A stretch of DNA of 64,000 bases from an uncultured Actinomycetota bacterium (GCA_963743915.1 CAVURN010000001.1:256001-320000), one strand, 5' to 3'; positions 1-15,537 are shown, counted from the stretch's first letter. The notes: generated from the letters alone by a model not told the origin. Numbers and translations: made by a program.

Positions 1-17
1 CCATCGAGTGGGAGTAG
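1..17 (+). CDS. guaA: 3' end of GMP synthase (partial)
   Basis: cc ATC GAG TGG GAG TAG = (T)IEWE*, the conserved GuaA C-terminus; the downstream core order (pspC-HK-RR-pcrA-sucCD-purNH) is what normally follows guaA in actinomycetes. Only 17 nt visible. Confidence 0.75.
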
Positions 18-18
18 T
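3..18 (+). repeat. attL core
   Basis: ATCGAGTGGGAGTAGT, identical to 9815-9830. Confidence 0.8.
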
Positions 19-135
19 CCACCAAGGCTGACCTGCGGGTTTGCGGCCCCTCATTGAACCTATGAGACCTGGCTTGACCCTACCGATACGCCATGGACGC
101 TGTCCACGGGCACGGTGACGTACCGGAAAGGTGCC

Positions 136-1008
136 CTAGTACTCGCGTCCGAGGGACCCCGAGGAGGGGAGCAGGAACGGGGGATCATTGCCTTCGGCGA
201 CCACGATCACCCGCTGCACCACCCAGTCGCAGAGCACCATGTGCCAGTTCTCCAAGGTGTTGACAAGGTCCCCCTGGAGCGGGAAGTCGGTCAGGCCGAG
301 ATGCACTTCATGCACAGCATCGACGCTCGGTGGAGTGCCATCCGGGTTGACGAGGACCCCTAAGAGGGCTCCATCGGTGTAGGCGACTTGGCGCGACGGT
401 CGCCAACGGTACTTCCCGCCGTCGGTTGGCTGCGCCCAGTAAACGAGGTCGGGCCACCAAGCGGTCACTGGCAGATGCCGGTGCTTGTCAGTGATTGACA
501 GGGAGTGGAGCCGGTACACCGTGTCAAAGTGGGCATCCTGCTCGGAGACCTCGATGCCGAGTTCGGCAGCCTCCTCGCCGAAGGCAAAGGGCTGAACGCA
601 GGCCAAGGCCCGTACGTCCTGAGTTCCAAAGAGCCCGCGCAGCCGCTCGACGATGGTCTTGTCAAAGGCTCTCCGGTCCAAGCACACGGGGAAGAAGACG
701 CGCTTCTCGTCCGTGCTCGATAGTTGACCTCCGTGGTTGCGCTTGGCGAGGACGTAGGCCACGCAGTCCAAGGCCGAGCGCATGTTGTGTACCGCATCGC
801 CGACGGTAGTGAGCAGGTCCACCGGCACCGGATCATGGACCCGAAGTCGGTACTGCACTTCACCAGGCGTCGCTGTGGGTGCGGTCTCCACCGTCCAGGG
901 AGAAGTTGCAGTGAAGTCATCGACCAAGCGTCGGACTGATCGGAGGTGGTGATGCGCTCTGCGCAGTTTGGCCCACCACGGGGAGTCCGGGTCGGCCCAG
1001 TCGATCAT
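136..1008 (-). CDS. Hypothetical helical protein (GDxxHNxRSALD...DKHR motifs)
   Basis: 290-aa ORF with globular composition; motifs GDAVHNMRSALD and ITDKHR. Confidence 0.75.
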   Translation of the reverse strand: MIDWADPDSPWWAKLRRAHHHLRSVRRLVDDFTATSPWTVETAPTATPGEVQYRLRVHDPVPVDLLTTVGDAVHNMRSALDCVAYVLAKRNHGGQLSSTDEKRVFFPVCLDRRAFDKTIVERLRGLFGTQDVRALACVQPFAFGEEAAELGIEVSEQDAHFDTVYRLHSLSITDKHRHLPVTAWWPDLVYWAQPTDGGKYRWRPSRQVAYTDGALLGVLVNPDGTPPSVDAVHEVHLGLTDFPLQGDLVNTLENWHMVLCDWVVQRVIVVAEGNDPPFLLPSSGSLGREY

Positions 1009-1112
1009 CTGGCTACCTTGACAGTCGTCGAGTGTTGAGTCGAGGACACGATCCCATGCTGCGCGCGAGTATTCGAGATGTCGAAGACTGGCGAAGAAAG
1101 GCGTGGGATCTG

Positions 1113-1139
1113 GGAACCGGCTGTGCTGACCGTGCGTGT
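1113..1139 (+). promoter_or_regulatory. ECF-type promoter GGAACC-N16-CGTGT, leaderless
   Basis: 7 nt before ATG 1147; same geometry at four other island genes. Confidence 0.7.
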
Positions 1140-1146
1140 TATAGGT

Positions 1147-1650
1147 ATGCCTGTGGACTCTGAGCGGTTATCGACTTTCTACGAGCGGACATCTCCTCCG
1201 TTGGTGGGACTGCTCACGGCCATGTGCGGTGATCGCGCTGAAGCCGAAGAGGTCGCTCAGGATGCCTACGTCAAACTGGTCCAGAGATGGTCCCAGATAA
1301 GTGGCTACGACTCCCCGGAGTCGTGGCTGCGCATGGTCGCCGTTCGGCTTCTGATCAGCCGGAAGAGGCGCACCCGCACCTGGCTCACGGCCAGCCTTCG
1401 CCTCTCGTCCGATACCCCTGGACATGCACCGGAGCCGAGCGTCAACTCTGTCGCCGTGGCGGACGCTCTAAAGCAGTTGAGCCTGGAGCAGCGTTCGGTT
1501 CTGGTCTTGCACCATGGACTGGACCTTTCCGTAGAGGAAGTGGCCCAGATGCTTGCAATCCCGGTGGGGACGGTCAAGTCGCGTCTGGCTCGGGCCCGGG
1601 CCGCCCTCATGCCACTACTCGCCGATGAAGAGGTGCTGGGCCATGACTGA
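1147..1650 (+). CDS. ECF sigma factor (type A)
   Basis: Region 2 AEEVAQDAYVKL, region 4 LAIPVGTVKSRLARAR; start placed at the ATG after the promoter motif. Confidence 0.9.
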   Translation: MPVDSERLSTFYERTSPPLVGLLTAMCGDRAEAEEVAQDAYVKLVQRWSQISGYDSPESWLRMVAVRLLISRKRRTRTWLTASLRLSSDTPGHAPEPSVNSVAVADALKQLSLEQRSVLVLHHGLDLSVEEVAQMLAIPVGTVKSRLARARAALMPLLADEEVLGHD

Positions 1651-2452
1651 CATTGACCAACTCATCCGCGACCACATCAACGATTGCACTCCCTCTGCCC
1701 CTCCGCAGATGAGCCCGCGACTGACGCGATCCTTGGCGAATGGGGACAAGATCCCACCCAAACGCGCTGCGCTTGCCGTCGGTGCTACCGCCGCAGCGGC
1801 TGCACTTGTCGTGGCCGGGGTCGCCATCGCCCGAGACCAGATCGCCGAGACGACGCCCTCTGGCGCTGTTCCCGCCTCTGGCGATGTTCCGGTCCTGGTG
1901 ACGTTGCCCGACACGGGTCTGCACATGGAAGCCATCGTGAGCGGCACACTCGGGGTTCGTGATGGGTGCTTCACGGTGGATGGTGCAGTTCTGATCGCAC
2001 CCGAGGGCTCAACAGTCTCACCGGACGGTCAATCCATCGTGATGCCCGGTATTGCGACCGTTCAAGTCGGCGACAAGGTTATCGGAGGAGGCGGCTGGGT
2101 GAACGAGGCACCTGATGCGGCACAACCCAGCAATGCGCCCTGCGTCGAACCAGTCAGGGAGGACAACTTCGCCATCCTCTCTGCCCCCCTCGAAAGCCCG
2201 ACCCCAACGCCCACAACCTCAGAAAGCCAGATCAAGAACGTCCAGGTTCCCGACGTTATTGGGGACAAGGAGGCACAGGCTGTGCAACAACTCCAACAGG
2301 TTGGTCTGGAGGTGACGGTCGTTTACGAGGCCGCACCAGCGGGGACCACATTGGACGCCGGTACTGTCCTTTCGGCGTCACCTGCACCAGGAACCAACGT
2401 CAGGGTCGGCACCACCGTTGTTCTCAAGGTTGTCGATCCGGACAAGGGCTAG
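1643..2452 (+). CDS. Putative anti-sigma membrane protein with C-terminal PASTA domain
   Basis: Overlaps the sigma stop codon; one TM helix; PASTA-like VPDVIG...AVQQLQQVGL...SPAPGT. Confidence 0.75.
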   Translation: MTDIDQLIRDHINDCTPSAPPQMSPRLTRSLANGDKIPPKRAALAVGATAAAAALVVAGVAIARDQIAETTPSGAVPASGDVPVLVTLPDTGLHMEAIVSGTLGVRDGCFTVDGAVLIAPEGSTVSPDGQSIVMPGIATVQVGDKVIGGGGWVNEAPDAAQPSNAPCVEPVREDNFAILSAPLESPTPTPTTSESQIKNVQVPDVIGDKEAQAVQQLQQVGLEVTVVYEAAPAGTTLDAGTVLSASPAPGTNVRVGTTVVLKVVDPDKG

Positions 2453-2591
2453 CCCTCGGTCCGGGTTTGCCCGTGCCAGTGGCGGGGTTGCCTTGCATCG
2501 ACACAGTGAGGGGTGGCAAGGGCCGGACGTGATTCGCGGCGGGCCTCGTGTACGACGCCGTTCAGAGGGGCACTTCCACGCCAACGTTCGC

Positions 2592-3197
2592 TCAGGCGTT
2601 GACCCTCTCGTGGCTCTCGCTTGGCGCCGCCAGATGCCGGTACACGGTTGCGCGACTTACCCCCACAACAGCAGCAATGGCCGCAACGGTGTGTTCCCCG
2701 TCGTTGTGCATCTTCCTGACGATGTCGATCTGATCGGCGGAGAGTAGGGGCTTGCGTCCTGGGCGTGAACCGCGTTGCCGGGCAGCAGCGAGACCCGCCT
2801 TTGTTCGGTCAACGATTAGGTCACGCTCGAACTCTGCGAGCGCAGCGAAGATGTGGAACACCAACTTGCCTGTCGAAGTGGTGGTGTCGATGGACTCGGT
2901 GACCGACTTGAAGCCGATCCCTTCCTCGTCCAGCGAAGTCACGGTCCCCACCAGGTGCTTCAGGCTGCGACCGAGGCGGTCGAGTCGCCAGACCAGGAGC
3001 GTGTCCCCCGGACGGACGAAGTCCAGGGCCGCAGCCAACTGGGGACGATCCGTGCGGGTCCCGGAGGCGGTGTCGGTGAAGACGCGGATGCAGCCCGCTT
3101 GGGTGAGGGCATCGACCTGGAGGTCAAGGTTCTGATCCCAAGTGCTGACCCTGGCGTAGCCAACGAGGTCCCCGGAGCGTGTGGTCAGCGTGTTCAT
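2592..3197 (-). CDS. Serine recombinase (resolvase/invertase family)
   Basis: GYARVST catalytic motif, RLDRLGRS, AEFERDLI, C-terminal HTH VSRATVYRHL. Confidence 0.95.
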   Translation of the reverse strand: MNTLTTRSGDLVGYARVSTWDQNLDLQVDALTQAGCIRVFTDTASGTRTDRPQLAAALDFVRPGDTLLVWRLDRLGRSLKHLVGTVTSLDEEGIGFKSVTESIDTTTSTGKLVFHIFAALAEFERDLIVDRTKAGLAAARQRGSRPGRKPLLSADQIDIVRKMHNDGEHTVAAIAAVVGVSRATVYRHLAAPSESHERVNA

Positions 3198-3199
3198 CC

Positions 3200-3340
3200 C
3201 GCCAGTGTCTCATAACCCGTCAGCGAGCACAATAGTGAGACAGGGCTCGTGGACACGGGATGTGGACGCTTTGGACCCCCGGATTCTTGGACATGGGGCG
3301 CCGCGAGCCGCTCTGTCCTAGACGGACCGTTTGTGCGACG
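3200..3340. promoter_or_regulatory. res-like recombination site
   Basis: Inverted TGTCTCA (3206-3212) / TGAGACA (3236-3242) plus GGAC/GTCC half-sites directly upstream of the resolvase. Confidence 0.6.
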
Positions 3341-3446
3341 AGTCGCTTGGCGCAGCACCCCGCGCAGGACTACGAGCGGTGCTTGCGGACGAACTGCGAG
3401 CCAGCATCGGGCCGCTGCCTCCTTCTTCTACGCGCACTGGGCGGCG

Positions 3447-3473
3447 GGAACCTCGACTCCCGTAAGCGCGTCA
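3447..3473 (+). promoter_or_regulatory. ECF-type promoter GGAACC-N16-CGTCA
   Basis: 8 nt before ATG 3482. Confidence 0.65.
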
Positions 3474-3481
3474 TAATGCTT

Positions 3482-4036
3482 ATGAGCCGCTCGCGTCCCA
3501 TACTCCCGCTGGCGGCGGTCGCCATGGCCTTGGCGCTCGTGGCCTGCACCTCGGACACCTCAGACACCTCGCCAAGCGGGGAGAGTCAGGGTGCGACTGG
3601 GGAGCAGTCGGCTGCCACCACCATCGACCTGGTTCGGTCGGGTGCCTGTGGCGATGCCTTCTTCTGGGCGGAGTCCGCCGACGGCGATACCGCCGTGACT
3701 GTTGACGTTGCCTACTCACGGCCCGCTGATCTAGCCGTGACGCTGGCGATCCCATTCACCCTCCCGGATCGCAGCGTCAAGGTCCGCGTCTTGGAGGGTC
3801 AGGATCTCTCCCGCAACTTCTGCACCGACGTCATCGACATGACATCTCAGCCGGAGTCCACGTCACCGGCGCTTGTAGGGCACGGTCGAGTCACCATTGC
3901 CCCACCTCCGGGCAATGGCAACGCCTGTGGTCGCACGTTGGGCACCCTCCGCCTCAATGGGCTCGTCGCGGAGGACGGGGCCGAGTTCTCGCCGATCACC
4001 GTCGAGTCACGCAACATCGGGTGCTACTCCGGGTGA
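3482..4036 (+). CDS. Lipoprotein, Cys-containing, unknown function
   Basis: Lipobox LVAC; paralog of 11531-12079. Confidence 0.8.
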   Translation: MSRSRPILPLAAVAMALALVACTSDTSDTSPSGESQGATGEQSAATTIDLVRSGACGDAFFWAESADGDTAVTVDVAYSRPADLAVTLAIPFTLPDRSVKVRVLEGQDLSRNFCTDVIDMTSQPESTSPALVGHGRVTIAPPPGNGNACGRTLGTLRLNGLVAEDGAEFSPITVESRNIGCYSG

Positions 4037-4083
4037 GGCGTCACGCCCCAGGTCCTCGTACTCGAACTCTTCATGGTGTGGTG

Positions 4084-4115
4084 TAAACCGAATCGGCCTT
4101 GGGCGCCACTAGTGG
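4084..4115 (+). promoter_or_regulatory. Candidate type-B ECF promoter TAAACC-N16-CCACTAGTGG
   Basis: Conserved with identical spacing at 12127-12158 while part of the spacer diverges. Confidence 0.55.
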
Positions 4116-4138
4116 GGTAGTTGAGGGCGGGAGGTCCT

Positions 4139-4675
4139 GTGACCGACGACCTGGACGAGTTCACCTCGTTCGTGGCGTCTTCTTCGGCTGCCCTCTTCCG
4201 GGTAGCCGGGCTACTGACAAGTGGTGACGCTCACGCGGCGCAGGACCTGGTGCAGGAGGCTTACTCCGAGACCTACCGTCGCTGGAGCAGCATCCGCGAT
4301 GCTGATGCCAGGCAGGCCTACGCCCGAAGGATCCTGGTCCGAGCCGCCACCCGGAGATGGCAACGGCTACGGGTGGAGCACCACGAGGCGCAGGTGCACG
4401 GCAGAGATGTCGAGGTGGGACACGCAGACCGTGTCACTGAAGCACGCGACCTGTGGGTGGCTTTGGGGGCCCTGTCACCCAAGCAACGTGCCGTGGTGGT
4501 GCTGCGCTACTACGAGGACATGACCGAGGCGCAGATCGCCGAGGTCCTGAACTGCTCACCGGGGGCGGTGAAGAGTCACGCCTCCCGTGGCCTCCGCACT
4601 CTTCAAGAGCGCCTCGGTGGCCCCGCTTACCTCAAACCAGCGTTGGATGGGAGTCCCGATGACGCCGTCAACTGA
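4139..4675 (+). CDS. SigE-family ECF sigma factor (type B)
   Basis: AQDLVQEA, VVVLRYYEDMTEAQIAEVL, GAVKSHASRG. Confidence 0.9.
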   Translation: MTDDLDEFTSFVASSSAALFRVAGLLTSGDAHAAQDLVQEAYSETYRRWSSIRDADARQAYARRILVRAATRRWQRLRVEHHEAQVHGRDVEVGHADRVTEARDLWVALGALSPKQRAVVVLRYYEDMTEAQIAEVLNCSPGAVKSHASRGLRTLQERLGGPAYLKPALDGSPDDAVN

Positions 4676-5936
4676 TACCTGGCTGAGCCAGAGACTGCAC
4701 GAGGGTGCGAGCACGCTTGCGGTTCCACTGAACCTGACAGATGAGGTCGTCGGTCATGCCATCAGATCGCAGCCCCGAAGCAATCGGATCCACGCCTTGA
4801 TGCAGGTCGCGGCAGCAGTGGTCGTCATGGCGGTAGTTGTGGTCGGTGTCAACGTTCTCCGCAGCGATAGCCCTTCGACCTCGCCACCTGTGGCCACTCC
4901 GACGCCAGTCGGCACTGCTGCACCAGTCTCGGACACCGCACGCGACCTGCTCGGCACCTGGCAGGTGGCTACATGGAATGGCGAACCACTCCCCAGATCC
5001 AAGGAGATGCTCAACGGCCCCCTGGTGACTTTCGAGACCGACGGCACCTGGAACGGGTCCGACGGATGCAACGACCTCGACGGCACATACCGCGTGGGGG
5101 CTGATGGCGCGTTCGAGTCCACCACCAAGGGAACGACTCTGATGCTCTGCGGTGGCGTAGACCCCCTTCCGGTGCCCGCTCGGGGCGCCGTTCGAGTGAC
5201 CGTTGAAGGCGATGTGGCTGTCTTCTTCGACACCGAAGGGCAGCAAGTGGCGAAGTACCACAGACCCGGAGGCTTGCTCGCGTCGGAGGCCCGGCTGGTC
5301 ACCCGGCTGGGAGATCCGGCGCTCGCGCTAAGCACCTACGGCAGCGGGAGTTGCCCAACGCGGATCGGATCAATCTCGTTGGAGGCTGACAACCAACTGG
5401 TGGTCGATCTTGCCGATTCATCCAGTCAGGTTTGTACCGCTGATGTCCAGAGGTCTACGGATGTGATGACCATCCCCGGTGGCCTCGATCTCGGTTCACC
5501 GATCACCGCAAGGCTCATGGGTACCCGCCCACCCTTCATCACTCTGCTCGTAGATACCTCGGCGATAGCCGGAGAGCCGCTGCTGGTCACAGCCAAAGAC
5601 TGGGACGGGTCATCGGTAGAACAGGCACGCCTTGAAGGCACCCTTGGTGTCAACGAGCAAGGCTGCGTCACTGTGGGTGACACGGTCGTGATGTGGCCCA
5701 ACACCTACGAACTCGGCTGGGACCGGGCAAGCACCTGGGTCATCGTCACGTTCGATGAGGACTACGGACCCGGCTACGGGACCGTCCTCGCCACCGAGGG
5801 AGAGCGGGTTGTCCTCGCTGGTGGCATGACACCGTTCGACACGAACCCCGGACCGCTACCCGCTGCGACTCACTCTGAGTGTCTCCTGGACGACGACTAC
5901 TGGACCGGCGTCATCGAAGTACAAGGTAACGACTAG
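4659..5936 (+). CDS. Putative anti-sigma membrane protein with META domain
   Basis: Overlaps the sigma gene; one TM helix; META-like GTW...GSDGCN..GTY...TTLMLC; two further Cys-pair modules. Confidence 0.75.
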   Translation: MTPSTDTWLSQRLHEGASTLAVPLNLTDEVVGHAIRSQPRSNRIHALMQVAAAVVVMAVVVVGVNVLRSDSPSTSPPVATPTPVGTAAPVSDTARDLLGTWQVATWNGEPLPRSKEMLNGPLVTFETDGTWNGSDGCNDLDGTYRVGADGAFESTTKGTTLMLCGGVDPLPVPARGAVRVTVEGDVAVFFDTEGQQVAKYHRPGGLLASEARLVTRLGDPALALSTYGSGSCPTRIGSISLEADNQLVVDLADSSSQVCTADVQRSTDVMTIPGGLDLGSPITARLMGTRPPFITLLVDTSAIAGEPLLVTAKDWDGSSVEQARLEGTLGVNEQGCVTVGDTVVMWPNTYELGWDRASTWVIVTFDEDYGPGYGTVLATEGERVVLAGGMTPFDTNPGPLPAATHSECLLDDDYWTGVIEVQGND

Positions 5937-5955
5937 ACGCTGTCACTGGCTCGAC

Positions 5956-6357
5956 TCAGTACCTGTCGCAGGTTTCGACACCTTGCTGGATCTTGGCTTG
6001 GTCACGTTCGGAGAGTTCTAGGCCACGCCAGATGCTGGCACCGTCGTTGAGTTCGGCTGGCTCGTAGGCAGCGATGTGCAGGAGACGCTGGGCGTTCCAG
6101 AGTCGGTGCACTTCACGCCTCAGAGCCTTATCCCCAGCCGCTTCCTCACCCGCTGGGTCGAGCCCCCACACTTCCTTGTAGCCCTCATCGAACGCTTCGC
6201 GGTCCTTGGTCTCATACGCCGTCGCCATCTTCCGCAGCCCGTCGCAGGCGTCGGCCATGTAGGACTCGTAGGCGCTGGAGCACCCGGTCATGGTGAGCAG
6301 AACCATGCCAGCGGTCGTCGCGCCGAAGACCTGGCACCGAGTCCTTGAAGCCCCCAT
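5956..6357 (-). CDS. Lipoprotein, unknown function
   Basis: Lipobox MTGC; paralog of 13996-14397; TAGCCT -10 element just before the ATG. Confidence 0.8.
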   Translation of the reverse strand: MGASRTRCQVFGATTAGMVLLTMTGCSSAYESYMADACDGLRKMATAYETKDREAFDEGYKEVWGLDPAGEEAAGDKALRREVHRLWNAQRLLHIAAYEPAELNDGASIWRGLELSERDQAKIQQGVETCDRY

Positions 6358-6406
6358 GACGTAAGGCTAGGTGATGTGAACCAGGCCTATGAGCGGTTTC
6401 GCTTGT

Positions 6407-6688
6407 CTAGCGCACCACGGTCAGACTGGTGCGCTGCACCTGGGCCACGATGTCGACACCACCATCGGTGAGTGCCTTGGCCAGTGAGTGAGCGGAGTCG
6501 TCTACGACGGGTTGCACGCTGTGCGTGATGACCTCCCGGTCCCCGGGGTCGGTGTGCGCTGCCATCCGCACCCAGGACCCGTGAGCGTCTGTGTAGAACC
6601 TCACGGTTGCTCCGACTCGTTGGCACCAGGCCATCGTCTCGGCCAAGTCCAGCAGTGCCATCGCCTCTTCGAGTGTGGTCTCTGCCAT
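6407..6688 (-). CDS. Hypothetical protein
   Basis: 93-aa ORF with GAAGGGGG RBS. Confidence 0.55.
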   Translation of the reverse strand: MAETTLEEAMALLDLAETMAWCQRVGATVRFYTDAHGSWVRMAAHTDPGDREVITHSVQPVVDDSAHSLAKALTDGGVDIVAQVQRTSLTVVR

Positions 6689-6882
6689 GGGTCCCCCTTC
6701 AGCGGTACACCATTGTCCTCGCCCTCAGCGCCAGTCCGCTAACCCTTACGAGTGATTGGTGTCATGGACCACGCTCGCGCAGGCGGTGAAGGTGCTGTCT
6801 GACCGATGAGCGCCACATTGGGCCGCGATGTCTCGAAGGATCATTGCTAGTTGATCGAAGGATTGTTGGTAGTGAGCCCTTC

Positions 6883-7272
6883 TCAGGCCCGTCGACCGTC
6901 CAGATCACCGGGATCGCTCGCTCGAAGTGCACGCCGCAACAGCGACGCCCGTTCCCAGATGTGCCTAAGGAGGAGTTGCAGTGTGTCGTTGGTGGCTCGT
7001 GCACGGTCCGGATTCTGCTCGTGGTCGATGGAGGACCTCGGGGTGAAGGAGGTCGTCCGTGAGAGCCAGAGGTCGTTGATGGAGCCGATCCCGGCGAAGG
7101 CCGAGAGCAAGTGGTCGAGGCCGAAGATGTCCCCGTGGCGAATGAGGTCGCAGTCATCGGCCAGCCATTCTGCCCACCGGCTCTCGCCCTGTCTCCCGAG
7201 CATGTCGACGACCTGATGCAGGTCGCGCACCAACTCACGCTGCAACATGTCGATGTCGGTCAGCGCCACCAT
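6883..7272 (-). CDS. DUF6966-like small helical protein
   Basis: WAEWL...GLDHLLSAFAGIGSINDL motif; start moved to ATG 7272. Confidence 0.6.
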   Translation of the reverse strand: MVALTDIDMLQRELVRDLHQVVDMLGRQGESRWAEWLADDCDLIRHGDIFGLDHLLSAFAGIGSINDLWLSRTTSFTPRSSIDHEQNPDRARATNDTLQLLLRHIWERASLLRRALRASDPGDLDGRRA

Positions 7273-7376
7273 GTCGCGGATGCACTGGCCGGGTCGACCG
7301 TCTACGGATGTGCGCGAGGGGTCAGAGATTCTTTTATCTCCGAATCGTGGTGAGGATGTACGGCATCTGTGCGATG

Positions 7377-8366
7377 TCATGCTGCACTTCGGTACTCGAC
7401 GATGCGCAAGCCGTCTCCGTTGCCGCCTAGAAGCCTCAGGACCCCATCTGAGCCACGGAACGTGATGATGGGCACTCCGATCTCACCTGGCCCGTTCACC
7501 GCCGTTAGATCGGCTCTACGGCCAAGTGTGTGGAGAACCTCACCGGTCTCGACATCGATGAGATGCCTTGGCTGTTCGTCGCGGAGTGCCTGAGCCGAAT
7601 GGGTCGACAGCGCATGGAGGTTCTTGCTCGACCACTGGGCGTTCTTCTGGGCTGGGGTTAGTTGTTGCGTCCCATGCAGGGTGAGTACTCGCGTGCGTGC
7701 CTCCCGTTGGCTCAGCGGTTGCCTCGTCTTGCCGTCACGGAAGAAGCCACGGCCATGGATGAGTTCTCGACCGTTCAGGCGGATGTGCTCGGTCAGGCTC
7801 GCTTGGTTGTGGGTGACGTTCTTGGCGATGTACCCGAAGTCACCGTCGTAGGTGACCGGGACGAGGTCGGTGTGTCCGTAGCCGACCGTGGCTGCTTGTT
7901 CGGCCAGTTGATCCCTGCTGAAGTGGTCTCCCCAGCCCAAGGCGTGGAGGTGGAACCCGGTGGCGTTGGGGTTGGGTTCGATGGTCCATAGCCACTGGAC
8001 TACTCCTACCTGGTTCCGTAGCCCCGTCTGGAGGTCCGCGATGCGGTCCCTGTCTGCTCGGTAGTCTCCGACCAGGTTGGTCAGCAAGACCATGTACTGC
8101 GGCTGGGCCAGTGCAACCATGTCGGGCAGGTACTTGTAGCGGAGTCTGGTGTCCTGGAGGCAGTCAGGTCTCCTGCATCTGTCTGGTTGGGTCCTGTTCT
8201 CCCTGTTCTTCCCCTTGGGGCATGGACCCTCTGGTTCCCTCGGTCCCCACTGCTCCTCCATGCTCCTAGCGACACCTGAGGCTCCAGAAGGAAGTGTGCG
8301 GTAAGGAACAAGAGAGAGTGTCGAGACCGCCGAGGGCGGCTCGGGGGAGATGGGGAAGTCGTTCAT
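7377..8366 (-). CDS. Rolling-circle replication initiator (HUH endonuclease)
   Basis: Ordered motifs I (MVLLT), II (GFHLHAL, preceded by E), III (YIAK); GAAGGAG RBS before ATG 8366. Confidence 0.75.
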   Translation of the reverse strand: MNDFPISPEPPSAVSTLSLVPYRTLPSGASGVARSMEEQWGPREPEGPCPKGKNRENRTQPDRCRRPDCLQDTRLRYKYLPDMVALAQPQYMVLLTNLVGDYRADRDRIADLQTGLRNQVGVVQWLWTIEPNPNATGFHLHALGWGDHFSRDQLAEQAATVGYGHTDLVPVTYDGDFGYIAKNVTHNQASLTEHIRLNGRELIHGRGFFRDGKTRQPLSQREARTRVLTLHGTQQLTPAQKNAQWSSKNLHALSTHSAQALRDEQPRHLIDVETGEVLHTLGRRADLTAVNGPGEIGVPIITFRGSDGVLRLLGGNGDGLRIVEYRSAA

Positions 8367-8390
8367 CAGATCTCCTTCAGATCGATGTCG

Positions 8391-8432
8391 CCGGGACACC
8401 CACCCGGATCTGAAGACGGGTGGGTGTCCCGG
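8391..8432. repeat. Perfect 16-bp inverted repeat (hairpin) upstream of rep
   Basis: CCGGGACACCCACCCG-10 nt-CGGGTGGGTGTCCCGG. Confidence 0.9.
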
Positions 8433-8540
8433 ACGACGCCACAGCGGCAAGGAGGGGGCGACCCTCCTCTACCCCTTCAAGGGGGCTCGGAGTGTCTGCG
8501 ACAGGAAGACCGGACCATCTACCCCGGGACATGCCATCGG

Positions 8541-9636
8541 TCAGATGGAGTCAGCGAGGGGTCTCTCCTCGTCAGGGTGAAGTTGCACGACATCAGCCAG
8601 TTGCACCATGTCGCTCAGGAAGGGTCGGCCACGAAGCACTTGGTCCCGACGGATGCGCTCGCTGGAGAGGCCGAGGTAGTGCTCGGTGGTCGAGGAGTTC
8701 TTGTGGTGCAGGAACGCGGAGGTGGTGCGAAGAGCGTGGTCGTACTGCCCCTGTCGCCAGACATGTCGAAGAAGTGTCGGGCGGCGGCACGGCGCATGGT
8801 GTGCATCCCCTCGCTCTTGACGGGGAGACCCAGGCGGCTGAGCCCGTACTGGACGATGCGCTCGGGGTGTTGGAGCGGCTTCGCGGGGTTCCAGGTGGCC
8901 TCGACTCGCCCCTTGACCTGCTTGCCGCCTTCACCGACCGTCCAGGCGTACCGACTTCCATGTCTGGCCGGGAACAGATAGTCGTGGTCGGTGAGGGGAC
9001 GCCCGATGTCGAGGGCGTAGGTCCGTAGCCAGTCAGCCAGGTGCTGCCCCAGGTCCGACGTGATGGCCACGTTGTCGTAGTCGCCAGACTTCGAGATGAC
9101 CACCTTCATGCTGTACGCGGCCAGGTCGAGATCGCCCACCCTGATGCTCAGGAGTTCATGACGCCTCAGCGCCGTGTTCGCTGCGGCTGCTAGTAGCGCC
9201 CGGTCGCGGCTGTTCGCCGCCCCCTCGATCATCGCCAGCAACTGCTCTGGGCTCGGCTGAAGCCGCTCTTGTCGCGGCACCCGCATGGGTGTCACCTCCC
9301 GCAGGAGAGCGCGGCGGACGACACCCCTCCTAGTCCAGTGCTCGAAGAACACGTCCATCGTCTTGCGGTAGTAGTTGTGGGTGCTTGGGGCGACCGGCTC
9401 TCGCTGGAGTCCGTCTCTCGTCACATGCTGACGCATAACTCCGTTGGCACCCGAGAAGAAGTCCTCGACGTGGCTCTCGGTCAGGTTGCGCAGTTGTATG
9501 TCGCGCTCCAGGAAAGCCGCGAAGCGCCTGAGGACGTACCCCTGGTTCGTCACGGTCGACGAAGCAAACCGGGCTGCGCGAAAGTGGAGGAACTCCTCCA
9601 CAGCCTCGGAGACCGTGATGTGGTGCTGGGTGCCAT
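8541..9636 (-). CDS. Tyrosine recombinase/integrase (frameshifted)
   Basis: TALRRHEL, K, HTMRR; after a frameshift near 8755 it continues FLHHKNSSTTEHYLG to the stop at 8541; the RBS-linked ATG 9636 is also out of frame. Confidence 0.85.
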
Positions 9637-9814
9637 GAGAGGGCCTTTCGGGTGTTCGGCGTATTGAGTTGAACAGCGTCTGGCCTCTCTGGCTCAACGA
9701 GGAGAACACACCGACGGGCACCGTGGCAACCCTTACTACGCCTGGGGTTTCGGCGTTAGCAAGAAACCTTGACAGTGATTGATGGAGGACTAGCAAGGAT
9801 GTTTCAAGTCCCCA

Positions 9815-9830
9815 ATCGAGTGGGAGTAGT
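9815..9830 (+). repeat. attR core
   Basis: Identical to 3-18. Confidence 0.8.
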
Positions 9831-9910
9831 GCATGAAGGCTGCGTGCTGAGCACCGAGCAGTGCTCGCCAAAGCGGTGACTGGCCGCCATTCGAGTGGGA
9901 TCGTGGGTTC

Positions 9911-10252
9911 ATGCGTCGAACGCTGGTCGTGACGGTCGGGCTCGTTCTGGTGGCCGCCGTGATGGTGGCAGGCTGGTGGACGTATCAGAATCGCGTGTGG
10001 CTTCGTGATCAGTACCAGGAGGGCTACCAGGCAGGTGCCCGGTTCGACCGGCAGGACTACCTGACCGACTGCCATCGCCGTGTCGATCATCAGTACGGCG
10101 TGCGCGTAGACGTGTCGATGCCTGAGAACGCCGCTGCCTTCACTATCGGCTGCTACGACGCCGCTCGGGATAGGTACCGGCCAGCAGCTGTTGGTTCTCT
10201 GCTCGCTGAGTTCATGGGGAAGTCCGACGTGAGATTCTGGCCGTGGTGGTGA
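9911..10252 (+). CDS. Small membrane-anchored protein
   Basis: N-terminal TM helix ending GWWTYQN. Confidence 0.65.
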   Translation: MRRTLVVTVGLVLVAAVMVAGWWTYQNRVWLRDQYQEGYQAGARFDRQDYLTDCHRRVDHQYGVRVDVSMPENAAAFTIGCYDAARDRYRPAAVGSLLAEFMGKSDVRFWPWW

Positions 10253-10674
10253 TGGATCACCAGGACTCGCGCATCAGTCGTCGCGCTGTCGTGGTGTTCG
10301 GGAGCCTGGTCCTCATCGCCGCGTTGACCGTCGGGGGTTGGTGGGGGTACCAGAACTGGGTGTGGCTCCTGAATCCTGAGGTGAAGGACCAGATCGTCGA
10401 CTTCACCAAGCAGGAACTCAGCGTGGATCGGACTGAGGTCGGTGATTGGAGGCTGGGCGGGGAGTGCATCGTGGCGGAGGTCGCGGTGTCTGGCGGTGAG
10501 ACCTATCGAGTGGCCCTGGTCAACCAGAACCCTGAGCCGAATCCGTACGAGCCGCTGTGGATCTCGCAGATCTTCACGCTCGATGACTTTGTATCGTCCA
10601 GTGATGCGTGGTGTGGAATCATCCACACCCCCGCGTACGTCTTCGATAGCAACGGCGAACGCATCATCGGCTGA
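10252..10674 (+). CDS. Small membrane-anchored protein
   Basis: TGATG coupling with the upstream gene; TM helix ending GWWGYQN. Confidence 0.65.
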   Translation: MDHQDSRISRRAVVVFGSLVLIAALTVGGWWGYQNWVWLLNPEVKDQIVDFTKQELSVDRTEVGDWRLGGECIVAEVAVSGGETYRVALVNQNPEPNPYEPLWISQIFTLDDFVSSSDAWCGIIHTPAYVFDSNGERIIG

Positions 10675-10683
10675 GTGAAGAGT

Positions 10684-11103
10684 TCAGTAAGGCTTCTCCG
10701 GACCGGGAACGACTTCGCGGTCGCCTAGTGGCTCAGTCATTGTCACGGTCACGGTGACCGGCGGGTTGCCTTGGCAGGTGTGGGCGTTCCCTTCCGGTGG
10801 GATCGCCCACACGGTCAAGATGGCGATGTCCTCCCCGTACTCGACGACCGGCTGCGGGTCCTGAGCCTTGGCCCCACCGGTACACGCGATCCACGCCACC
10901 TGTACGTCGAACTCTCGGTCCTCGGGTCTGGGTTCCTTTCCGGCGAATTGCCAGTGAGCGACCTTGCGGCCATCAGTGTCTACCTCGGCGGTGGTAGTGG
11001 TGCCTGGCTCATCTTCTGCCGTCTGGCTGGACAGTCCATCCGCGCAGGCCCCCACACTCAGCAACAGCGTCACGGCCACCCAAGCGATGTGCTGGGTCCT
11101 CAT
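10684..11103 (-). CDS. Lipoprotein with Cys-pair beta domain
   Basis: Lipobox VGAC; C...C...EPLGDREVV. Confidence 0.8.
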   Translation of the reverse strand: MRTQHIAWVAVTLLLSVGACADGLSSQTAEDEPGTTTTAEVDTDGRKVAHWQFAGKEPRPEDREFDVQVAWIACTGGAKAQDPQPVVEYGEDIAILTVWAIPPEGNAHTCQGNPPVTVTVTMTEPLGDREVVPGPEKPY

Positions 11104-11110
11104 GGTCCTA

Positions 11111-11137
11111 AGACTGTCAGGCGCGGGTCGTGGTTCC
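11111..11137 (-). promoter_or_regulatory. ECF-type promoter GGAACC-N16-AGTCT, leaderless
   Basis: 7 nt before ATG 11103 on the minus strand. Confidence 0.65.
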
Positions 11138-11192
11138 CCGGTTTCAGGCTCGCGGTCGACCGAGAACGCGAGGTGTAGCCCTGGAGTGGTCC

Positions 11193-11525
11193 ATGGCGGC
11201 GCACACTAGGTCTGTGCATCGCCGACCCGTTCGAGCCGCGGGGATTGCGGTGGCCGGAGTCGTGGCTGCGGTCGTTTGGTTATGGGTTGGGCCCGGCAGC
11301 TACCAGCCCTGTCTTCCCGCACCTCCGTGGGACGATCTCGCCGTCTGGATCAGTGGGAGTCTTGGAGCTGGGGAGACCGACGGACTGTCGGGAGCGCCTG
11401 CGTTCTGCGACATACCTACGGACTTCACCTGGGTCGTCGCGCTCGGGATGCTGGCAGTCGCCGTGGCGGCAGCCGTCTGGCCGGTGGTAGGGGGCAGGAA
11501 CCTCGACTCCGGGCAGCGCGTCTGA
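11193..11525 (+). CDS. Two-TM membrane protein
   Basis: Two hydrophobic helices around a loop with two Cys; GGAG RBS. Confidence 0.6.
   Translation: MAAHTRSVHRRPVRAAGIAVAGVVAAVVWLWVGPGSYQPCLPAPPWDDLAVWISGSLGAGETDGLSGAPAFCDIPTDFTWVVALGMLAVAVAAAVWPVVGGRNLDSGQRV
11497..11523 (+). promoter_or_regulatory. ECF-type promoter GGAACC-N16-CGTCT, leaderless
   Basis: 7 nt before ATG 11531. Confidence 0.7.
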
Positions 11526-11530
11526 TGGCC

Positions 11531-12079
11531 ATGAGCCGCTCCCGTCCCATAACGCTGCTGGCGACTGCCGTCATGGCGCTGGGGCTTGTGGCCTGTACCT
11601 CGGACACCTCAGACCCGTTGACAAGCGGGGAAAGTCAGGGTGCGACTGGTGCGCCGGCCGCCATCAACCTAGTCCGGTCGGGTGCCTGTGGCGATGCCTT
11701 CTTCTGGGCGGAGTCTGCCGACGGGGATACCGCGGTGACCGCCGAGGTGACCTACTCCCGGCCAGCCGGGGCGAACCCGACGGTGGCCATCCCGTTCTCG
11801 CTGCCTGGCAACCGAGCCGTCAAGGTCGAAGTACTCACCGGGCGCGATCTGTCGCGCAACTTCTGCACCGATGTCTTAGACATGTCATCCCAGCCCGAGT
11901 CGAGGTCACCGGCGGTTGCAGGGGAGGGTCGGGTCACCATCGACGCACCTCCGGCCAAAGGCAACGCTTGTGGTCGAACGTTTGGCACCCTCGACCTGAG
12001 CGGGCTTGTCGCGGAGGACGGTTCGGTCTTCTCGCCGATCACCGTGCAGACCCGCAACATCGGGTGCTTCGCCGGTTGA
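11531..12079 (+). CDS. Lipoprotein, paralog of 3482-4036
   Basis: Lipobox LVAC; shared SGACGDAFFWAESADGD. Confidence 0.8.
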   Translation: MSRSRPITLLATAVMALGLVACTSDTSDPLTSGESQGATGAPAAINLVRSGACGDAFFWAESADGDTAVTAEVTYSRPAGANPTVAIPFSLPGNRAVKVEVLTGRDLSRNFCTDVLDMSSQPESRSPAVAGEGRVTIDAPPAKGNACGRTFGTLDLSGLVAEDGSVFSPITVQTRNIGCFAG

Positions 12080-12182
12080 TGCTTCACGCCGTGGGTCCTC
12101 GCGCTCAGACTCCTCAGGGTGGGGTGTAAACCGAATCATCGGCTGGAGCCACTAGTGGGGTAGTTGAGGGTGGGAGGAGCCG

Positions 12183-12719
12183 GTGACTGACGACTTGGAC
12201 GAGTTCACCTCGTTCGTGGCGTTTTCCTCGGCCGCCCTCTTCCGGGTAGCCGGGCTACTGACAAGTGGCGATACCCATGCAGCGCAGGATCTGGTGCAGG
12301 AGGCGTACTCCGAGACCTACCGACGCTGGAGCAGCATCCGCGATCCTGGTGCCCGCCACGCCTTCGCTCGACGCATCCTCATCAGGACAGCCACCAGGCG
12401 TTGGAAGCGGCTCCGAGTCGAGCAGCCGGGGCAGCACATGCACGAGGGGCCGGTCGGCGTCAGTCATGCGGACCAGGTTGCACAGGCCCATGACCTGTGG
12501 GTGGCGCTGGCGGCGCTGTCTCCCAGACAACGGGCCGTCGTGGTGCTGCGCTACTACGACGACATGACCGAGGCGCAGATCGCCGAGGTGCTGGGGTGCT
12601 CATCCGGGGCGGTCAAGAGTCACGCCTCTCGCGGCCTGCGGCGACTCCAGGAGCAACTTGGTGGCCCGGGCTACATCACCACGCACACGGAGGAGAGCCA
12701 CCATGGCACCGCCACCTGA
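12183..12719 (+). CDS. SigE-family ECF sigma factor (type B)
   Basis: Close paralog of 4139-4675. Confidence 0.9.
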   Translation: MTDDLDEFTSFVAFSSAALFRVAGLLTSGDTHAAQDLVQEAYSETYRRWSSIRDPGARHAFARRILIRTATRRWKRLRVEQPGQHMHEGPVGVSHADQVAQAHDLWVALAALSPRQRAVVVLRYYDDMTEAQIAEVLGCSSGAVKSHASRGLRRLQEQLGGPGYITTHTEESHHGTAT

Positions 12720-13977: not shown

Positions 13978-13995
13978 ACGTGTGACTGGCTCGGC

Positions 13996-14397: not shown

Positions 14398-14457
14398 GGC
14401 GCAAGGGTAGGTGGTCGGCCGAAGCCCCCGCAGGGTTCTGTGTCGTGCGCCCGGGGT

Positions 14458-14886: not shown

Positions 14887-14896
14887 GCCGTCAGTT

Positions 14897-14955
14897 TAGT
14901 CAGGGGACTTGACTAGGTGTCCGAGCGTGAGGAGACTAGTCAGGAAACCTGACGA
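14897..14955. promoter_or_regulatory. Two palindromic MarR-type operators
   Basis: TAGTCAGGGGACTTGACTA and TAGTCAGGAAACCTGACGA between the divergent marR and SRPBCC genes. Confidence 0.7.
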
Positions 14956-14987
14956 AAGAGTCAGTCCACGGTGCAGGGAGCAGGCGG

Positions 14988-15446: not shown

Positions 15447-15503
15447 ATCTTGGCTGTTACGAGCTCGTCCACCGGAATGGCGTTCACTTGCCTCACGTGA
15501 AAG

Positions 15504-15530: not shown

Positions 15531-15537
15531 AAGGAGT

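What the first reader, a model, noticed from the sequence alone, without database searches (positions are those of the whole stretch)
3..9830. Minimal guaA-integrated replicon: tyrosine integrase + HUH rolling-circle Rep + serine resolvase, carrying ECF signalling cargo
Seen: 16-bp att repeats copying the guaA end, a co-oriented int-rep pair, a resolvase with a res-like site, and no FtsK/TraB, relaxase/T4SS, capsid or recognisable excisionase. Known: guaA 3' ends are integration hotspots, and actinomycete AICEs pair an RCR Rep with a TraB translocase. Inference: a non-autonomous integrative plasmid or satellite class that excises, replicates by rolling circle, resolves dimers and carries envelope-sensing modules.
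Basis: partly seen in the sequence, partly recalled or inferred. Interest (0 to 1): 0.8.

Follow-up and report, generated by a model that had tools for sequence, protein, structure and literature searches.

The report
Small integrative element at guaA
A 9.8-kb mobile element sits at the end of the GMP synthase gene of an environmental high-GC bacterium, carrying an integrase, a rolling-circle-type replication protein, a resolvase and two sigma-factor modules; it is a new variant of a known kind of genomic island.

Summary
The window opens in the last codons of guaA. A 16-bp exact repeat, 25 of 28 when extended, copies the guaA end at 3-30 and 9815-9842. Between the repeats lie a tyrosine integrase, an HUH Rep, a small serine resolvase with an inverted repeat in front of it, and two ECF sigma modules. 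No translocase, relaxase, T4SS, capsid or excisionase was detected.

New points:
- A same-genus genome has the empty site. The whole of 18-~21826 is inserted, so the element is the guaA-proximal layer of a stacked hot spot.
- Two other genus members keep the same att arms around 0.8-1.7 kb remnants.
- The integrase is frame-broken twice in this assembly. A 98%-identical intact allele exists, and the assembly shows many frame breaks in conserved genes.
- A Propionibacteriales MAG carries a ~21.8-kb guaA element with the same int, Rep and resolvase families.
- The Rep belongs to a rare family below Pfam threshold, with no match in the plasmid or phage collections.

Excision, replication and transfer are all inferred. 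Verdict: a new variant of guaA-targeting integrative, probably mobilizable, elements. Interest is moderate.

The parts
1..17 (+). 3' end of guaA (last codons ...IEWE and the TAG stop); the rest of the gene lies left of the window
3..30 (.). attL: 16-bp exact core ATCGAGTGGGAGTAGT (3-18) plus an extended repeat to 30. The element-side arm is conserved to about 66 in G003, G005 and G770.
136..1008 (-). 290-aa ORF of unknown function. No Pfam, NCBIfam, PHROGs or PADLOC hit. Atlas neighbours are unnamed clusters, mostly Actinomycetota.
1078..1650 (+). ECF-type sigma factor 1 (Sigma70_r2 plus r4_2)
1553..2452 (+). Membrane protein with a C-terminal PASTA domain (likely start near 1643); putative anti-sigma or sensor partner of sigma 1
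2592..3197 (-). Small serine recombinase (Resolvase N-terminal domain plus HTH_7), 201 aa; 66% identical to the resolvase of the G770 guaA element
3206..3242 (.). res-like inverted repeat TGTCTCA-N23-TGAGACA, 9 bp upstream of the resolvase start, followed by TGGAC(A) direct repeats
3260..4036 (+). Putative lipoprotein (likely start 3476, signal peptide ending ...LVAC); first gene of the four-gene block that has a paralog at 11276-14397
4121..4675 (+). ECF-type sigma factor 2 (80% aa identity to the copy at 12183-12719)
4587..5936 (+). Membrane protein with a META domain; putative anti-sigma or sensor partner of sigma 2
5956..6357 (-). 133-aa lipoprotein-like ORF; last gene of the paralogous block
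6407..6688 (-). 93-aa ORF, no family hit
6883..7380 (-). DUF6966 protein. Its ATG overlaps the rep stop (ATGA). It is conserved together with rep in G004.
7377..8366 (-). HUH-type Rep, 329 aa. Core is residues 34-227, with H139-L-H141 and Y179-xx-K182. The C-terminal ~100 aa is shared only with the closest relatives.
8391..8432 (.). Perfect 16-bp inverted repeat with a 10-nt loop, 25 nt upstream of the rep ATG; candidate origin or operator. Conserved in G004 with one compensatory pair.
8541..9636 (-). Tyrosine integrase gene, frame-broken twice in this assembly: near codon 4 and near 8754-8761. The downstream frame 8544-8753 holds the Tyr box and is 100% identical to the intact allele P0156.
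9683..9812 (.). Integrase-proximal att arm, conserved in G005 (77%) and G003 (86-87% over 9760-9854)
9815..9842 (.). attR: second copy of the guaA end (core 9815-9830) plus an extended repeat. One public contig stops matching at 9829.

Best explanation
Window 18-9830 is a site-specific integrative element of about 9.8 kb.

Shown here:
- It lies in the 3' end of guaA and rebuilds the last codons and the stop from its own att copy.
- It is bounded by a 16-bp exact repeat.
- It is absent from the same site in a same-genus genome.
- It shares its att arms with remnants in two other genus members.
- It shares its integrase, Rep and resolvase families with a guaA element in another order.

Inferred mechanism:
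- The tyrosine integrase recombines attP with the conserved guaA end. The integrase points inward from attR, and an intact 365-aa allele exists in public data.
- After excision the HUH Rep, translationally coupled to a DUF6966 protein, nicks an origin and copies the circle by rolling-circle replication. The origin may be the 16-bp hairpin 25 nt upstream of rep.
- The small serine resolvase acts on the inverted repeat in front of its gene to resolve multimers.
- The two ECF sigma/membrane-sensor pairs, the lipoproteins and the 290-aa ORF are cargo.
- The element has no DNA translocase, relaxase of a known family, T4SS or virion genes. Cell-to-cell movement would therefore need a helper or an unknown route, which makes it an integrative, probably mobilizable, element rather than an AICE.
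- It entered the guaA-proximal att site of an older, decayed insertion (9843-~21826) that carries paralogous ECF modules. This fits tandem accretion.
For: Site and ends.

Empty site: in G009 the guaA stop is followed within ~20 bp by sequence matching window ~21826 onward.

Same arms around short interiors:
- G003 has an attL arm, ~790 bp, then an attR arm, 86% identical over window 9760-9854.
- G005 has an attL arm, ~1.66 kb, then an attR arm at 77%.
- The att arm matched in 4 of 31 relatives' genomes, one of them weakly.

Integrase: Phage_integrase and phrog_1 hits. The intact allele P0156 (98%, 365 aa) carries the ...HxxR... and ...LHHKNSSTTEHY... boxes in one frame.

Rep:
- It has 275 relatives at E<=1e-3 in 1.84 billion representatives.
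- H139 and Y179 are invariant, and H141 and K182 nearly so, in 60 sequences.
- 14 of 60 touch PF23343.
- The AF2 core has pLDDT above 90.
- BFVD gave 60 hits at E<=1e-3; of the 50 rows listed only 7 carry a name, and all 7 are microvirus or ORF2-G2P/VP4-type Reps.
- The best PDB chain is SIRV1 ORF119, Z 7.6, rmsd 3.0, 104 residues aligned. AAV, MVM, nanovirus, geminivirus and circovirus Rep domains follow at Z 4.8-5.7.

Second element: G770:C46 has guaA end, Rep-family gene (hhalign 99.7%, E 5.5e-26), resolvase (66%), integrase (49%) and an att copy, spanning ~21.8 kb.

Public data:
- 18 runs of 11 studies hold part of the stretch, and 6 hold at least half of its sampled words.
- Contigs of X1-X3 match the interior with 0-3 differences per piece. 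The exceptions are three pieces: X1 record 1 (15 differences), X1 record 8 over int (9 plus 5 gaps) and X2 record 9 (48).
- A 1709-nt X1 contig aligns up to window 9829 and then runs on unlike.

Copy number: the island is single-copy in the genome.
Against: - No excision product was seen. No attP or attB joint is among the 15 joints shown for four runs; 26 more were not shown, and the runs are contigs only, so this is a weak test.
- In this assembly the integrase is out of frame twice, so this copy may be dead.
- No excisionase, origin, oriT or helper has been identified.
- The Rep scores below Pfam's cut-off (20.7 against 27.8 bits). Foldseek against the PDB gave nothing at E<=1e-3. Z 7.6 is in the range the tool calls middling.
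- The hairpin could simply be an operator or a terminator for int.
- The resolvase may be cargo or an invertase.
- Only one complete relative with the same three families was found, and there the Rep lies at the other end of the element.
Confidence: 0.58

Rival explanations
1. This is a fixed, no longer mobile remnant: a defective AICE-like or ICE-like island that lost its transfer genes and, in this genome, its integrase. It is now only a vertically inherited block of ECF regulators.
For: - The integrase frame is broken at two places in the window.
- No transfer genes were detected.
- Decayed layers and short remnants with the same arms are common at this site.
- Ghinet et al. [quoted passage not shown]
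Against: - The assembly is error-prone. One conserved 706-723-aa gene at 21833-23981 is split into 5 frame pieces, and two other genes are split.
- Contigs of runs X1 and X4 carry indels of net +1 base exactly at the C-terminal break. Contigs of X1 and X2 carry an extra base at the N-terminal break.
- An intact 98% allele exists.
- The att core is still 16 of 16 identical, and rep, DUF6966 and the resolvase are open.
- The G770 relative also showed no translocase in the ORFs scanned, which suggests that lack of tra is the family's normal state.
Confidence: 0.22
2. The HUH protein is chiefly a conjugative relaxase, in the manner of Rep_trans/MobT-type proteins of Firmicute ICEs and IMEs, and not a plasmid-style replication initiator. 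The element is then an IME that hitches on a helper's mating pore, with the hairpin as oriT.
For: - The IME review describes Rep-related relaxases and IMEs that carry Rep genes, including guaA-site IMEs (passages and table read, PMC5704250).
- The element has no transfer apparatus of its own.
- In G004 the Rep-DUF6966 module lies 4 kb from a T2SSE/VirB11-type ATPase gene.
Against: - No coupling protein or T4SS was sought beyond PF01580 in the own genome.
- The structural neighbours that carry a name are virus and plasmid replication initiators.
- Nothing distinguishes the two roles by sequence, and they are not exclusive.
Confidence: 0.15
3. This is an integrated ssDNA phage or a phage satellite whose Rep is of the microvirus/inovirus type.
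For: - Among the BFVD structural matches, the rows that carry a name are Microvirus replication initiators and ORF2/G2P-domain proteins.
- There is a weak PF23343 hit.
Against: - No PHROGs hit for any ORF except the integrase.
- No capsid, coat, Zot-like ATPase or packaging gene was found.
- Rep by tblastn: no match in 50,697 phage records.
- Neither Rep nor integrase found a relative in IMG/VR by the pattern-plus-tblastn scan.
- About two thirds of the element is sigma-factor, lipoprotein or resolvase cargo.
Confidence: 0.04

Closest known systems
guaA-targeting integrative mobilizable elements: GIsul2 (Proteobacteria), ATE-1 (Trueperella pyogenes) and the Brucella suis IncP island. Source: passages and Table 1 of PMC5704250, passages of PMC9376610.
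   Same: - Tyrosine integrase.
- Insertion in the 3' end of guaA that keeps the gene intact. GIsul2's stated site GAGTGGGA lies inside this element's core.
- Replication genes on board.
- GIsul2 also carries a gene named resG.
- No full conjugation apparatus.
   Different: - The integrase found no tblastn match in 72,556 plasmid records at E<=1e-5. I recall that GIsul2 copies occur on IncC plasmids, but I did not check that the collection holds one.
- The Rep here is an HUH protein of a rare family, not RepA/RepC.
- The integrase lies at the end distal to guaA.
- No alpA-type excisionase, trb genes or toxin-antitoxin pair was found.
- The cargo is ECF regulators, not resistance genes.
AICEs: actinomycete integrative and conjugative elements such as pSAM2, SLP1 and pMEA300 (PMC2440964 abstract and passages; PMC3218068 passages)
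   Same: - Small size of about 10 kb, in a high-GC genome that I take to be actinobacterial.
- Tyrosine integrase together with a rolling-circle-type Rep.
- Tandem insertion into the same att site is described for AICEs.
   Different: - No FtsK/TraB translocase was found in the island, and the genome has only one PF01580 match.
- No Pfam or NCBIfam replication-family model other than the weak PF23343 match appeared. I did not confirm that those libraries hold RepSA, RepAM or Prim-Pol models that would have matched.
- The target is guaA, not a tRNA gene.
- No Xis, Kor or Nudix genes were recognised.
- It carries a serine resolvase.
CIME/ICE tandem accretion in Streptococcus (model as summarised in PMC5704250, section 2.3)
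   Same: - A newer element sits next to the target gene.
- Decayed layers or short att-flanked remnants without an integrase lie beside it.
- The arms of neighbouring layers are similar.
   Different: - The layers here have not been shown to be cis-mobilizable.
- The outer right end of the old layer, near 21826, has no recognisable core left.

Membership tests
AICE | Site-specific integrase with flanking att direct repeats | tested here: met
   The integrase is frame-broken in this assembly, but an intact 98% allele exists.
AICE | FtsK/SpoIIIE-type TraB translocase for dsDNA transfer | tested here: not met
   No PF01580 hit or any P-loop hit in the 12 island ORFs scanned against Pfam. The own genome has a single PF01580 match, at C1:811253.
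AICE | Replication protein of the RepSA, RepAM or Prim-Pol type | tested here: inconclusive
   The Rep gave only a sub-threshold PF23343 hit in Pfam and nothing in NCBIfam. I did not verify that those libraries contain RepSA or RepAM models.
AICE | Integration in a tRNA gene (the usual case) | tested here: not met
   The target is guaA. No tRNA is present in the window.
Integrative mobilizable element (IME) | Own integration/excision module and att-flanked, site-specific insertion | tested here: met
Integrative mobilizable element (IME) | No complete conjugation apparatus | tested here: met
Integrative mobilizable element (IME) | oriT and/or relaxase that a helper's mating pore can use; demonstrated mobilisation | not testable with these tools
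   The only candidates are the HUH Rep and the hairpin at 8391-8432.
HUH endonuclease (Rep) superfamily | HUH metal-binding motif and catalytic Tyr motif (YxxK), as I recall the definitions | tested here: met
   H139 and Y179 are invariant, and H141 and K182 are at least 90% conserved, in 60 relatives.
HUH endonuclease (Rep) superfamily | Rep-nuclease fold | tested here: inconclusive
   The model core has pLDDT above 90. BFVD gave 60 hits at E<=1e-3, and the few that carry a name are Reps. Best PDB chain is 2x3g_A at Z 7.6, with several Rep domains at Z 4.4-5.7 mixed among ferredoxin-like folds. Foldseek against the PDB gave 0 hits at E<=1e-3.
Pfam PF23343 REP_ORF2-G2P | Score above the gathering cut-off (27.8 bits) | tested here: not met
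   20.4-20.7 bits, E about 6e-4. 14 of 60 relatives match at E<=0.01, best 6.5e-7.
Tyrosine recombinase | Catalytic domain with the R..HxxR..Y residues in one reading frame | tested here: inconclusive
   In the window the HxxR box and the Tyr box lie in different frames. They are in one frame in P0156, P0157 and P0159. The assembly is error-prone.
Small serine resolvase with res site | Resolvase catalytic domain plus C-terminal HTH | tested here: met
   PF00239 E 3.9e-45, PF02796 E 4.8e-12
Small serine resolvase with res site | Multi-subsite res next to the gene | tested here: inconclusive
   One 7-bp inverted repeat with a 23-bp spacer at 3206-3242, plus TGGAC(A) repeats. There are no relatives to compare and no binding data.
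Integrated ssDNA phage (inovirus or microvirus) | Coat or capsid and morphogenesis genes | tested here: not met
   No PHROGs hit in the 8 island ORFs scanned other than the integrase. No Rep match in the phage records or IMG/VR.

The most novel reading that the evidence does not exclude
A distinct lineage of non-conjugative integrative rolling-circle replicons exists in high-GC Gram-positive bacteria. It is defined by a guaA-specific tyrosine integrase, an unannotated HUH Rep family (with DUF6966) and a small serine resolvase. The lineage spans at least two orders. It stacks by accretion at guaA and, in this genus, moves ECF sigma/sensor modules between strains, that is, horizontal transfer of envelope-signalling circuits without any known transfer machinery.
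Probability: 0.3. Interest if true: 0.6.

Novelty: new variant of a known kind. Interest (0 to 1): 0.45.

Why it matters
Small integrative elements without transfer genes are common, yet how they move is mostly unknown. Outside Streptomyces-type AICEs they are hardly described in Actinobacteria.

This locus offers a compact, testable case:
- a precise 16-bp att core in a conserved gene end;
- a natural empty site, and short remnants, in sister species;
- an intact integrase allele in public data;
- a Rep family that did not appear in the plasmid or phage collections searched.

It also shows regulatory modules, ECF sigma factors with PASTA or META sensors, as island cargo. That is one way for strains to differ in envelope-stress wiring.

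A practical lesson also follows. The integrase looks like a pseudogene here, but the same window shows many frame breaks in conserved genes. Gene decay should therefore not be read from this assembly alone.

Tried and rejected
- attP/attB joints: read laying on L017 with runs X1-X4 listed no joint between window ~17 and ~9830, and none going back from attR to attL. This says nothing either way.
- Coverage right of attR: in X1-X3, depth over window 9840-17176 was near zero while the island interior was covered.
- Rep in other collections: Rep gave no tblastn match in plasmids or phages. Pattern-plus-tblastn scans found no Rep relative in IMG/VR or genome contigs, one distant hit in metagenome contigs (L021), and no integrase relative in IMG/VR.
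- Other database searches without a match: a profile of 60 Reps against PDB sequences gave 0 hits. The integrase found nothing in plasmids at 1e-5. The integrase was found in 1 of 401 phylum genomes at E<=1e-25, and that one is the own genome.
- Contexts of distant Rep relatives (L021, L022, L039-L042): no guaA, no integrase of this family and no close resolvase within ±10 kb by tblastn. Pfam scans were limited to 10 + 10 ORFs. In L039 a large serine recombinase lies next to the Rep gene.
- Function of other ORFs: PADLOC gave nothing meaningful for 7 island proteins. The Atlas gave only unnamed clusters for the 290-aa ORF.
- A right-end att of the older layer near 21826: no core is recognisable there.
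- An excisionase: none was recognised among ORFs of 30 aa or more in 6340-7000 or in the family scans. Small ORFs elsewhere were not examined, and no structure was predicted for the 93-aa ORF.
Paper supplements were not requested; Table S5 of PMC3218068, on Frankia remnant AICEs and mobilizable elements, may hold comparable elements.
- Unpublished genome: G024 appeared in the listings.

Full report
**1. What is at the coordinates**

The window is G000:C1:256001-320000. Translating the genome just upstream gives a complete GMP synthase that ends ...PPGTIEWE* at window 15-17. Its last 504 residues align end to end with solved GMP synthases, for example 1gpm_A 22-525 of 525, E 1e-152.

The 17-nt guaA end recurs once, at 9813-9829, with one mismatch. 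That is 2 matches against 0.17 expected, and 2 of 100 shuffles reached 2. The gapless repeat is 3-30 versus 9815-9842, 25 of 28, with 16 exact bases ATCGAGTGGGAGTAGT.

Between the repeats, Pfam, NCBIfam and PHROGs give the following genes:
- a 290-aa ORF without any family (136-1008, minus strand);
- ECF sigma 1 (1078-1650) followed by a membrane protein with a C-terminal PASTA domain (to 2452);
- a 201-aa serine resolvase (2592-3197, minus strand; PF00239 E 3.9e-45 plus HTH_7);
- a probable lipoprotein (3476-4036), ECF sigma 2 (4121-4675), a META-domain membrane protein (to 5936) and a 133-aa lipoprotein-like ORF (5956-6357, minus strand);
- then, all on the minus strand and reading inward from the right end: integrase (8541-9636), Rep (7377-8366), a DUF6966 protein (6883-7380, whose ATG overlaps the rep stop as ATGA) and a 93-aa ORF (6407-6688).

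No scanned ORF hit an FtsK/TraB, relaxase, T4SS, capsid or excisionase model. The whole genome, 90% complete, has one FtsK_SpoIIIE match, at C1:811253. The element is single-copy in the genome.

**2. It is an insertion, and the newest layer of a stack**

The guaA 3' 1.5 kb was found in 30 of 31 relatives' genomes.

In G009, of the same genus, the guaA stop is followed within about 20 bp by sequence that matches window ~21826 onward. In G006, G002 and G010, synteny likewise resumes at window ~22000. So everything from 18 to ~21826 is absent from that relative.

The part right of attR (9843-~21826) has no integrase or Rep. It holds a 75-79% nucleotide paralog of the island's four-gene cargo block: 3440-6373 versus 11490-14413, with protein identities of 62-80%. 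It also holds a second ECF1-like sigma (56% aa) with a META protein, a MarR gene and fragmented ABC-transporter genes.

The 13 bases just right of the attR core resemble the element-side arm right of the attL core. This is what is expected if the present element integrated into the guaA-proximal att site of an older relative. That is the tandem accretion model described for ICE, IME and CIME stacks (PMC5704250, section 2.3, passages read) and for tandem AICEs (PMC2440964, passage read). I treat this as consistent with the data, not as shown. The outer end near 21826 keeps no recognisable core.

**3. The same ends occur elsewhere in the genus**

The integrase-proximal arm plus core (window 9690-9850) matched in 4 of 31 genomes: the own genome, G003, G005, and G011 only weakly.
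- G003 has guaA, an attL-like arm, about 790 bp with one ORF, and an attR-like arm with a perfect core, 86% identical over window 9760-9854.
- G005 has an attL arm (80% over window 3-66), about 1.66 kb, and an attR-like arm (77% over 9683-9842). ECF and META genes follow.

These are att-flanked remnants without an integrase. They show that the arms belong to a family of elements that has used this site repeatedly.

**4. The integrase**

In the window the gene is out of frame twice.
- The ATG at 9634-9636 is not in frame with the body of the gene.
- The frame holding ...HTMRRAAARHFFDM... runs into low-complexity sequence, while the next frame (8544-8753) encodes the ...LHHKNSSTTEHYLG... Tyr box.

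A database protein of 365 aa, P0156, is 98% identical and has both parts in one frame. So do P0157 (77%) and P0159 (48%).

Contigs of runs X1 and X4 differ from the window by -1, +1 and +1 bases at window 8754-8761. Contigs of X1 and X2 have one extra base at 9626. Those are exactly the two break places.

The same window shows frame breaks in conserved genes when compared with three relatives:
- one 706-723-aa gene at 21833-23981 lies in 5 frame pieces;
- the 777-781-aa gene at 31526-33833 lies in 2;
- another gene at 28092-28792 lies in 2;
- the ABC-transporter genes at 17540-21088 are in pieces.

I therefore think the integrase breaks are more likely assembly errors than decay, but this is not settled.

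The lineage is rare. It was not found in 400 other phylum genomes at E<=1e-25.

**5. The Rep**

The word-index search found 3 proteins, one of them the window's own product and two close relatives. The exhaustive search found 275 representatives at E<=1e-3, 58 at 1e-10 and 7 at 1e-30, out of 1.84 billion. The shared core is residues ~34-227.

In an alignment of 60 sequences, P89, H139 and Y179 are invariant. H141, K182, E130, N132, P133 and three N-terminal cysteines are at least 90% conserved. These correspond to an HUH motif and a YxxK motif, as I recall the definitions.

Pfam gives only a sub-threshold PF23343 (REP_ORF2-G2P) hit for this protein. 14 of 60 relatives match at E<=0.01.

The AlphaFold model has mean pLDDT 76.8, with the core above 90. 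Fold searches gave:
- Foldseek against the PDB: nothing at E<=1e-3.
- BFVD: 60 matches at E<=1e-3. Most of the 50 listed rows have no name in the tables at hand. The 7 that do are microvirus replication initiators (4), an ORF2/G2P-domain protein, a VP4 and a Rep.
- VIA-align against 48,161 chains: SIRV1 ORF119 first (Z 7.6, rmsd 3.0, 104 of 116 residues). AAV5 Rep (5.7), MVM NS1 (5.3), nanovirus (5.1), geminivirus (4.9), circovirus (4.8) and vientovirus (4.4) Rep domains appear among ferredoxin-like folds.

Motifs and fold together make an HUH endonuclease the clear reading. Membership of a named Pfam family is not met.

The Rep did not appear in 72,556 plasmid records, 50,697 phage records or IMG/VR. 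It was found in 3 of 401 class genomes and in 4 of 301 genomes of the order of G770.

**6. Companions of the Rep**

- In G004, of the same genus, a 73-74% identical Rep keeps the DUF6966 gene behind it and the upstream hairpin. It sits among Prim-Pol, serine recombinase, T2SSE-ATPase and DnaB-like genes, with no integrase of this family.
- In G1031 a family member lies directly beside a 493-aa large serine recombinase.
- The most telling case is contig C46 of G770, titled a Propionibacteriales MAG. It has a guaA 3' end (84% identical) at one end and an att copy of the guaA end at the other, about 100 bp from an integrase 49% identical to P0156 (44.6% to the window's copy by tblastn), about 21.8 kb apart.
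- Between them lie a resolvase 66% identical to this island's and a Rep-family gene (hhalign 99.7%, E 5.5e-26). The attL-side arm is similar.
- The cargo there is different: an Eco57I-type methylase, CHAT, an HNH-repeat/NOV_C protein, pentapeptide and HAD proteins. The 20 ORFs scanned showed no translocase or relaxase.

So the three backbone families recur at guaA in a second order, though the gene order differs: there the Rep lies next to attL.

**7. Candidate sites**

- A perfect 16-bp inverted repeat with a 10-nt loop lies at 8391-8432, 25 nt upstream of the rep ATG.
- The int-rep spacer folds with z = -5.1 against shuffles.
- In G004 the loop keeps 9 of 10 bases and one stem pair changes on both sides, C-G to T-A, while the middle of the stem is imperfect.
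- With two sequences this is a lead for an origin or operator, no more.
- In front of the resolvase lies TGTCTCA-N23-TGAGACA (3206-3242), unique in the window. It is followed by TGGAC(A) repeats. It is res-like but untested.

**8. Public runs**

- 18 runs of 11 studies hold part of window 1-10000, and 6 hold at least half of the sampled words. The samples include sediment, soil, freshwater and wastewater metagenomes.
- I laid 4 of the 24 listed runs, X1-X4, on the sequence. All four are kept as contigs only.
- Most contig pieces from X1-X3 match the island interior with 0-3 differences. The exceptions are X1 record 1 (15 differences), X1 record 8 over int (9 plus 5 gaps) and X2 record 9 (48 differences).
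- A 1709-nt X1 contig aligns to window 8368-9829 and then continues with unlike sequence, so it leaves the window's sequence at the last base of the stop codon within the att core.
- This fits the island lying in a different right-hand context in that sample, but I could not see the other side.
- No excision joint was listed.

**9. Mechanism and comparison**

The best reading is a site-specific integrative element, with these steps:
- The integrase uses the conserved guaA end.
- The element can probably replicate as a circle through its HUH Rep.
- The resolvase keeps the circle monomeric.
- The element depends on something else for transfer.

Everything after 'site-specific insertion' is inference.

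It works like the guaA-targeting IMEs listed in PMC5704250 (ATE-1, the Brucella IncP island, GIsul2). GIsul2's stated site GAGTGGGA lies inside this core, and GIsul2 also carries rep genes and resG (PMC9376610, passages read). Its proteins are unrelated at the level tested.

It resembles AICEs in size and in pairing an integrase with a rolling-circle Rep. It fails the defining TraB test and targets guaA rather than a tRNA gene. Ghinet et al. [quoted passage not shown]

I searched the paper library for guaA islands and for HUH/integrative elements in Actinobacteria. No listed title or abstract describes this Rep family or this trio, but I read only listings, abstracts and passages.

**10. Verdict**

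It is a new variant of a known kind, with a rare, unannotated Rep family and a guaA-specific integrase lineage seen in two orders. Interest is moderate.

Noticed in passing
window 21833-23981, 28092-28792, 31526-33833: Conserved genes that are single ORFs in three relatives are split over 5, 2 and 2 reading frames here. The assembly seems to carry many small indel errors, so apparent pseudogenes in this genome need checking.
   Followed up: partly
window 17540-21088: ABC-transporter genes (ABC_membrane plus ABC_tran) lie in at least three overlapping frame pieces, inside the region that is absent from G009. In run X4 a contig joins the guaA end (L017 1483) to L017 19238 (window 17738) with 4 letters between. 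This may be a strain with neither island layer.
   Followed up: no
window 1078-2452: An ECF sigma factor is paired with a single-pass membrane protein whose outside part is a PASTA domain, a domain otherwise known from PBPs and PknB-type kinases. This would be an unusual sensor for an anti-sigma factor, if that is what it is.
   Followed up: no
window 9843-17389: The older layer holds two more ECF sigma genes (12183-12719, 15538-16047), each followed by a META-domain membrane protein, plus a MarR gene (14458-14886). That makes four ECF modules within 17 kb downstream of guaA. G005 also has ECF/META genes in its guaA-linked region.
   Followed up: partly
window 9889-9905: CCATTCGAGTGGGATCG resembles the guaA end with one extra base, 60 nt right of attR. 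It may be a decayed third att copy or chance.
   Followed up: no
L005 (G004:C17:109000-128900), about 5300-16000: The Rep-DUF6966 module sits in what looks like another mobile element, with a T2SSE-type ATPase, a serine recombinase, Prim-Pol, DUF6308 and a DnaB-like protein.
   Followed up: partly
L039 (G1031:C3:257500-277400), 7344-12185: A large serine recombinase (493 aa) lies directly next to a Rep-family gene. A DNA_pol_A fragment and a LAGLIDADG-domain ORF lie beside them.
   Followed up: no
G770: C9:7704-9217 and C46:21913-22181: This MAG has a full guaA 3' region on contig C9 (75% identical to the query) and a second guaA end on contig C46 (84%). This may be a strain mixture or bin contamination, so the host of the C46 element is uncertain.
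   Followed up: no
L007 (G003) 370-1165: The ~790-bp interior of the att-flanked mini-element holds one ORF with no similarity to the island's genes.
   Followed up: no
Rep residues 49, 64, 69 and the column after: Most family members have a Cys cluster (C...C..C..C) ahead of the HUH core. This Rep and its two closest relatives lack the last Cys, having Asp in its place.
   Followed up: no
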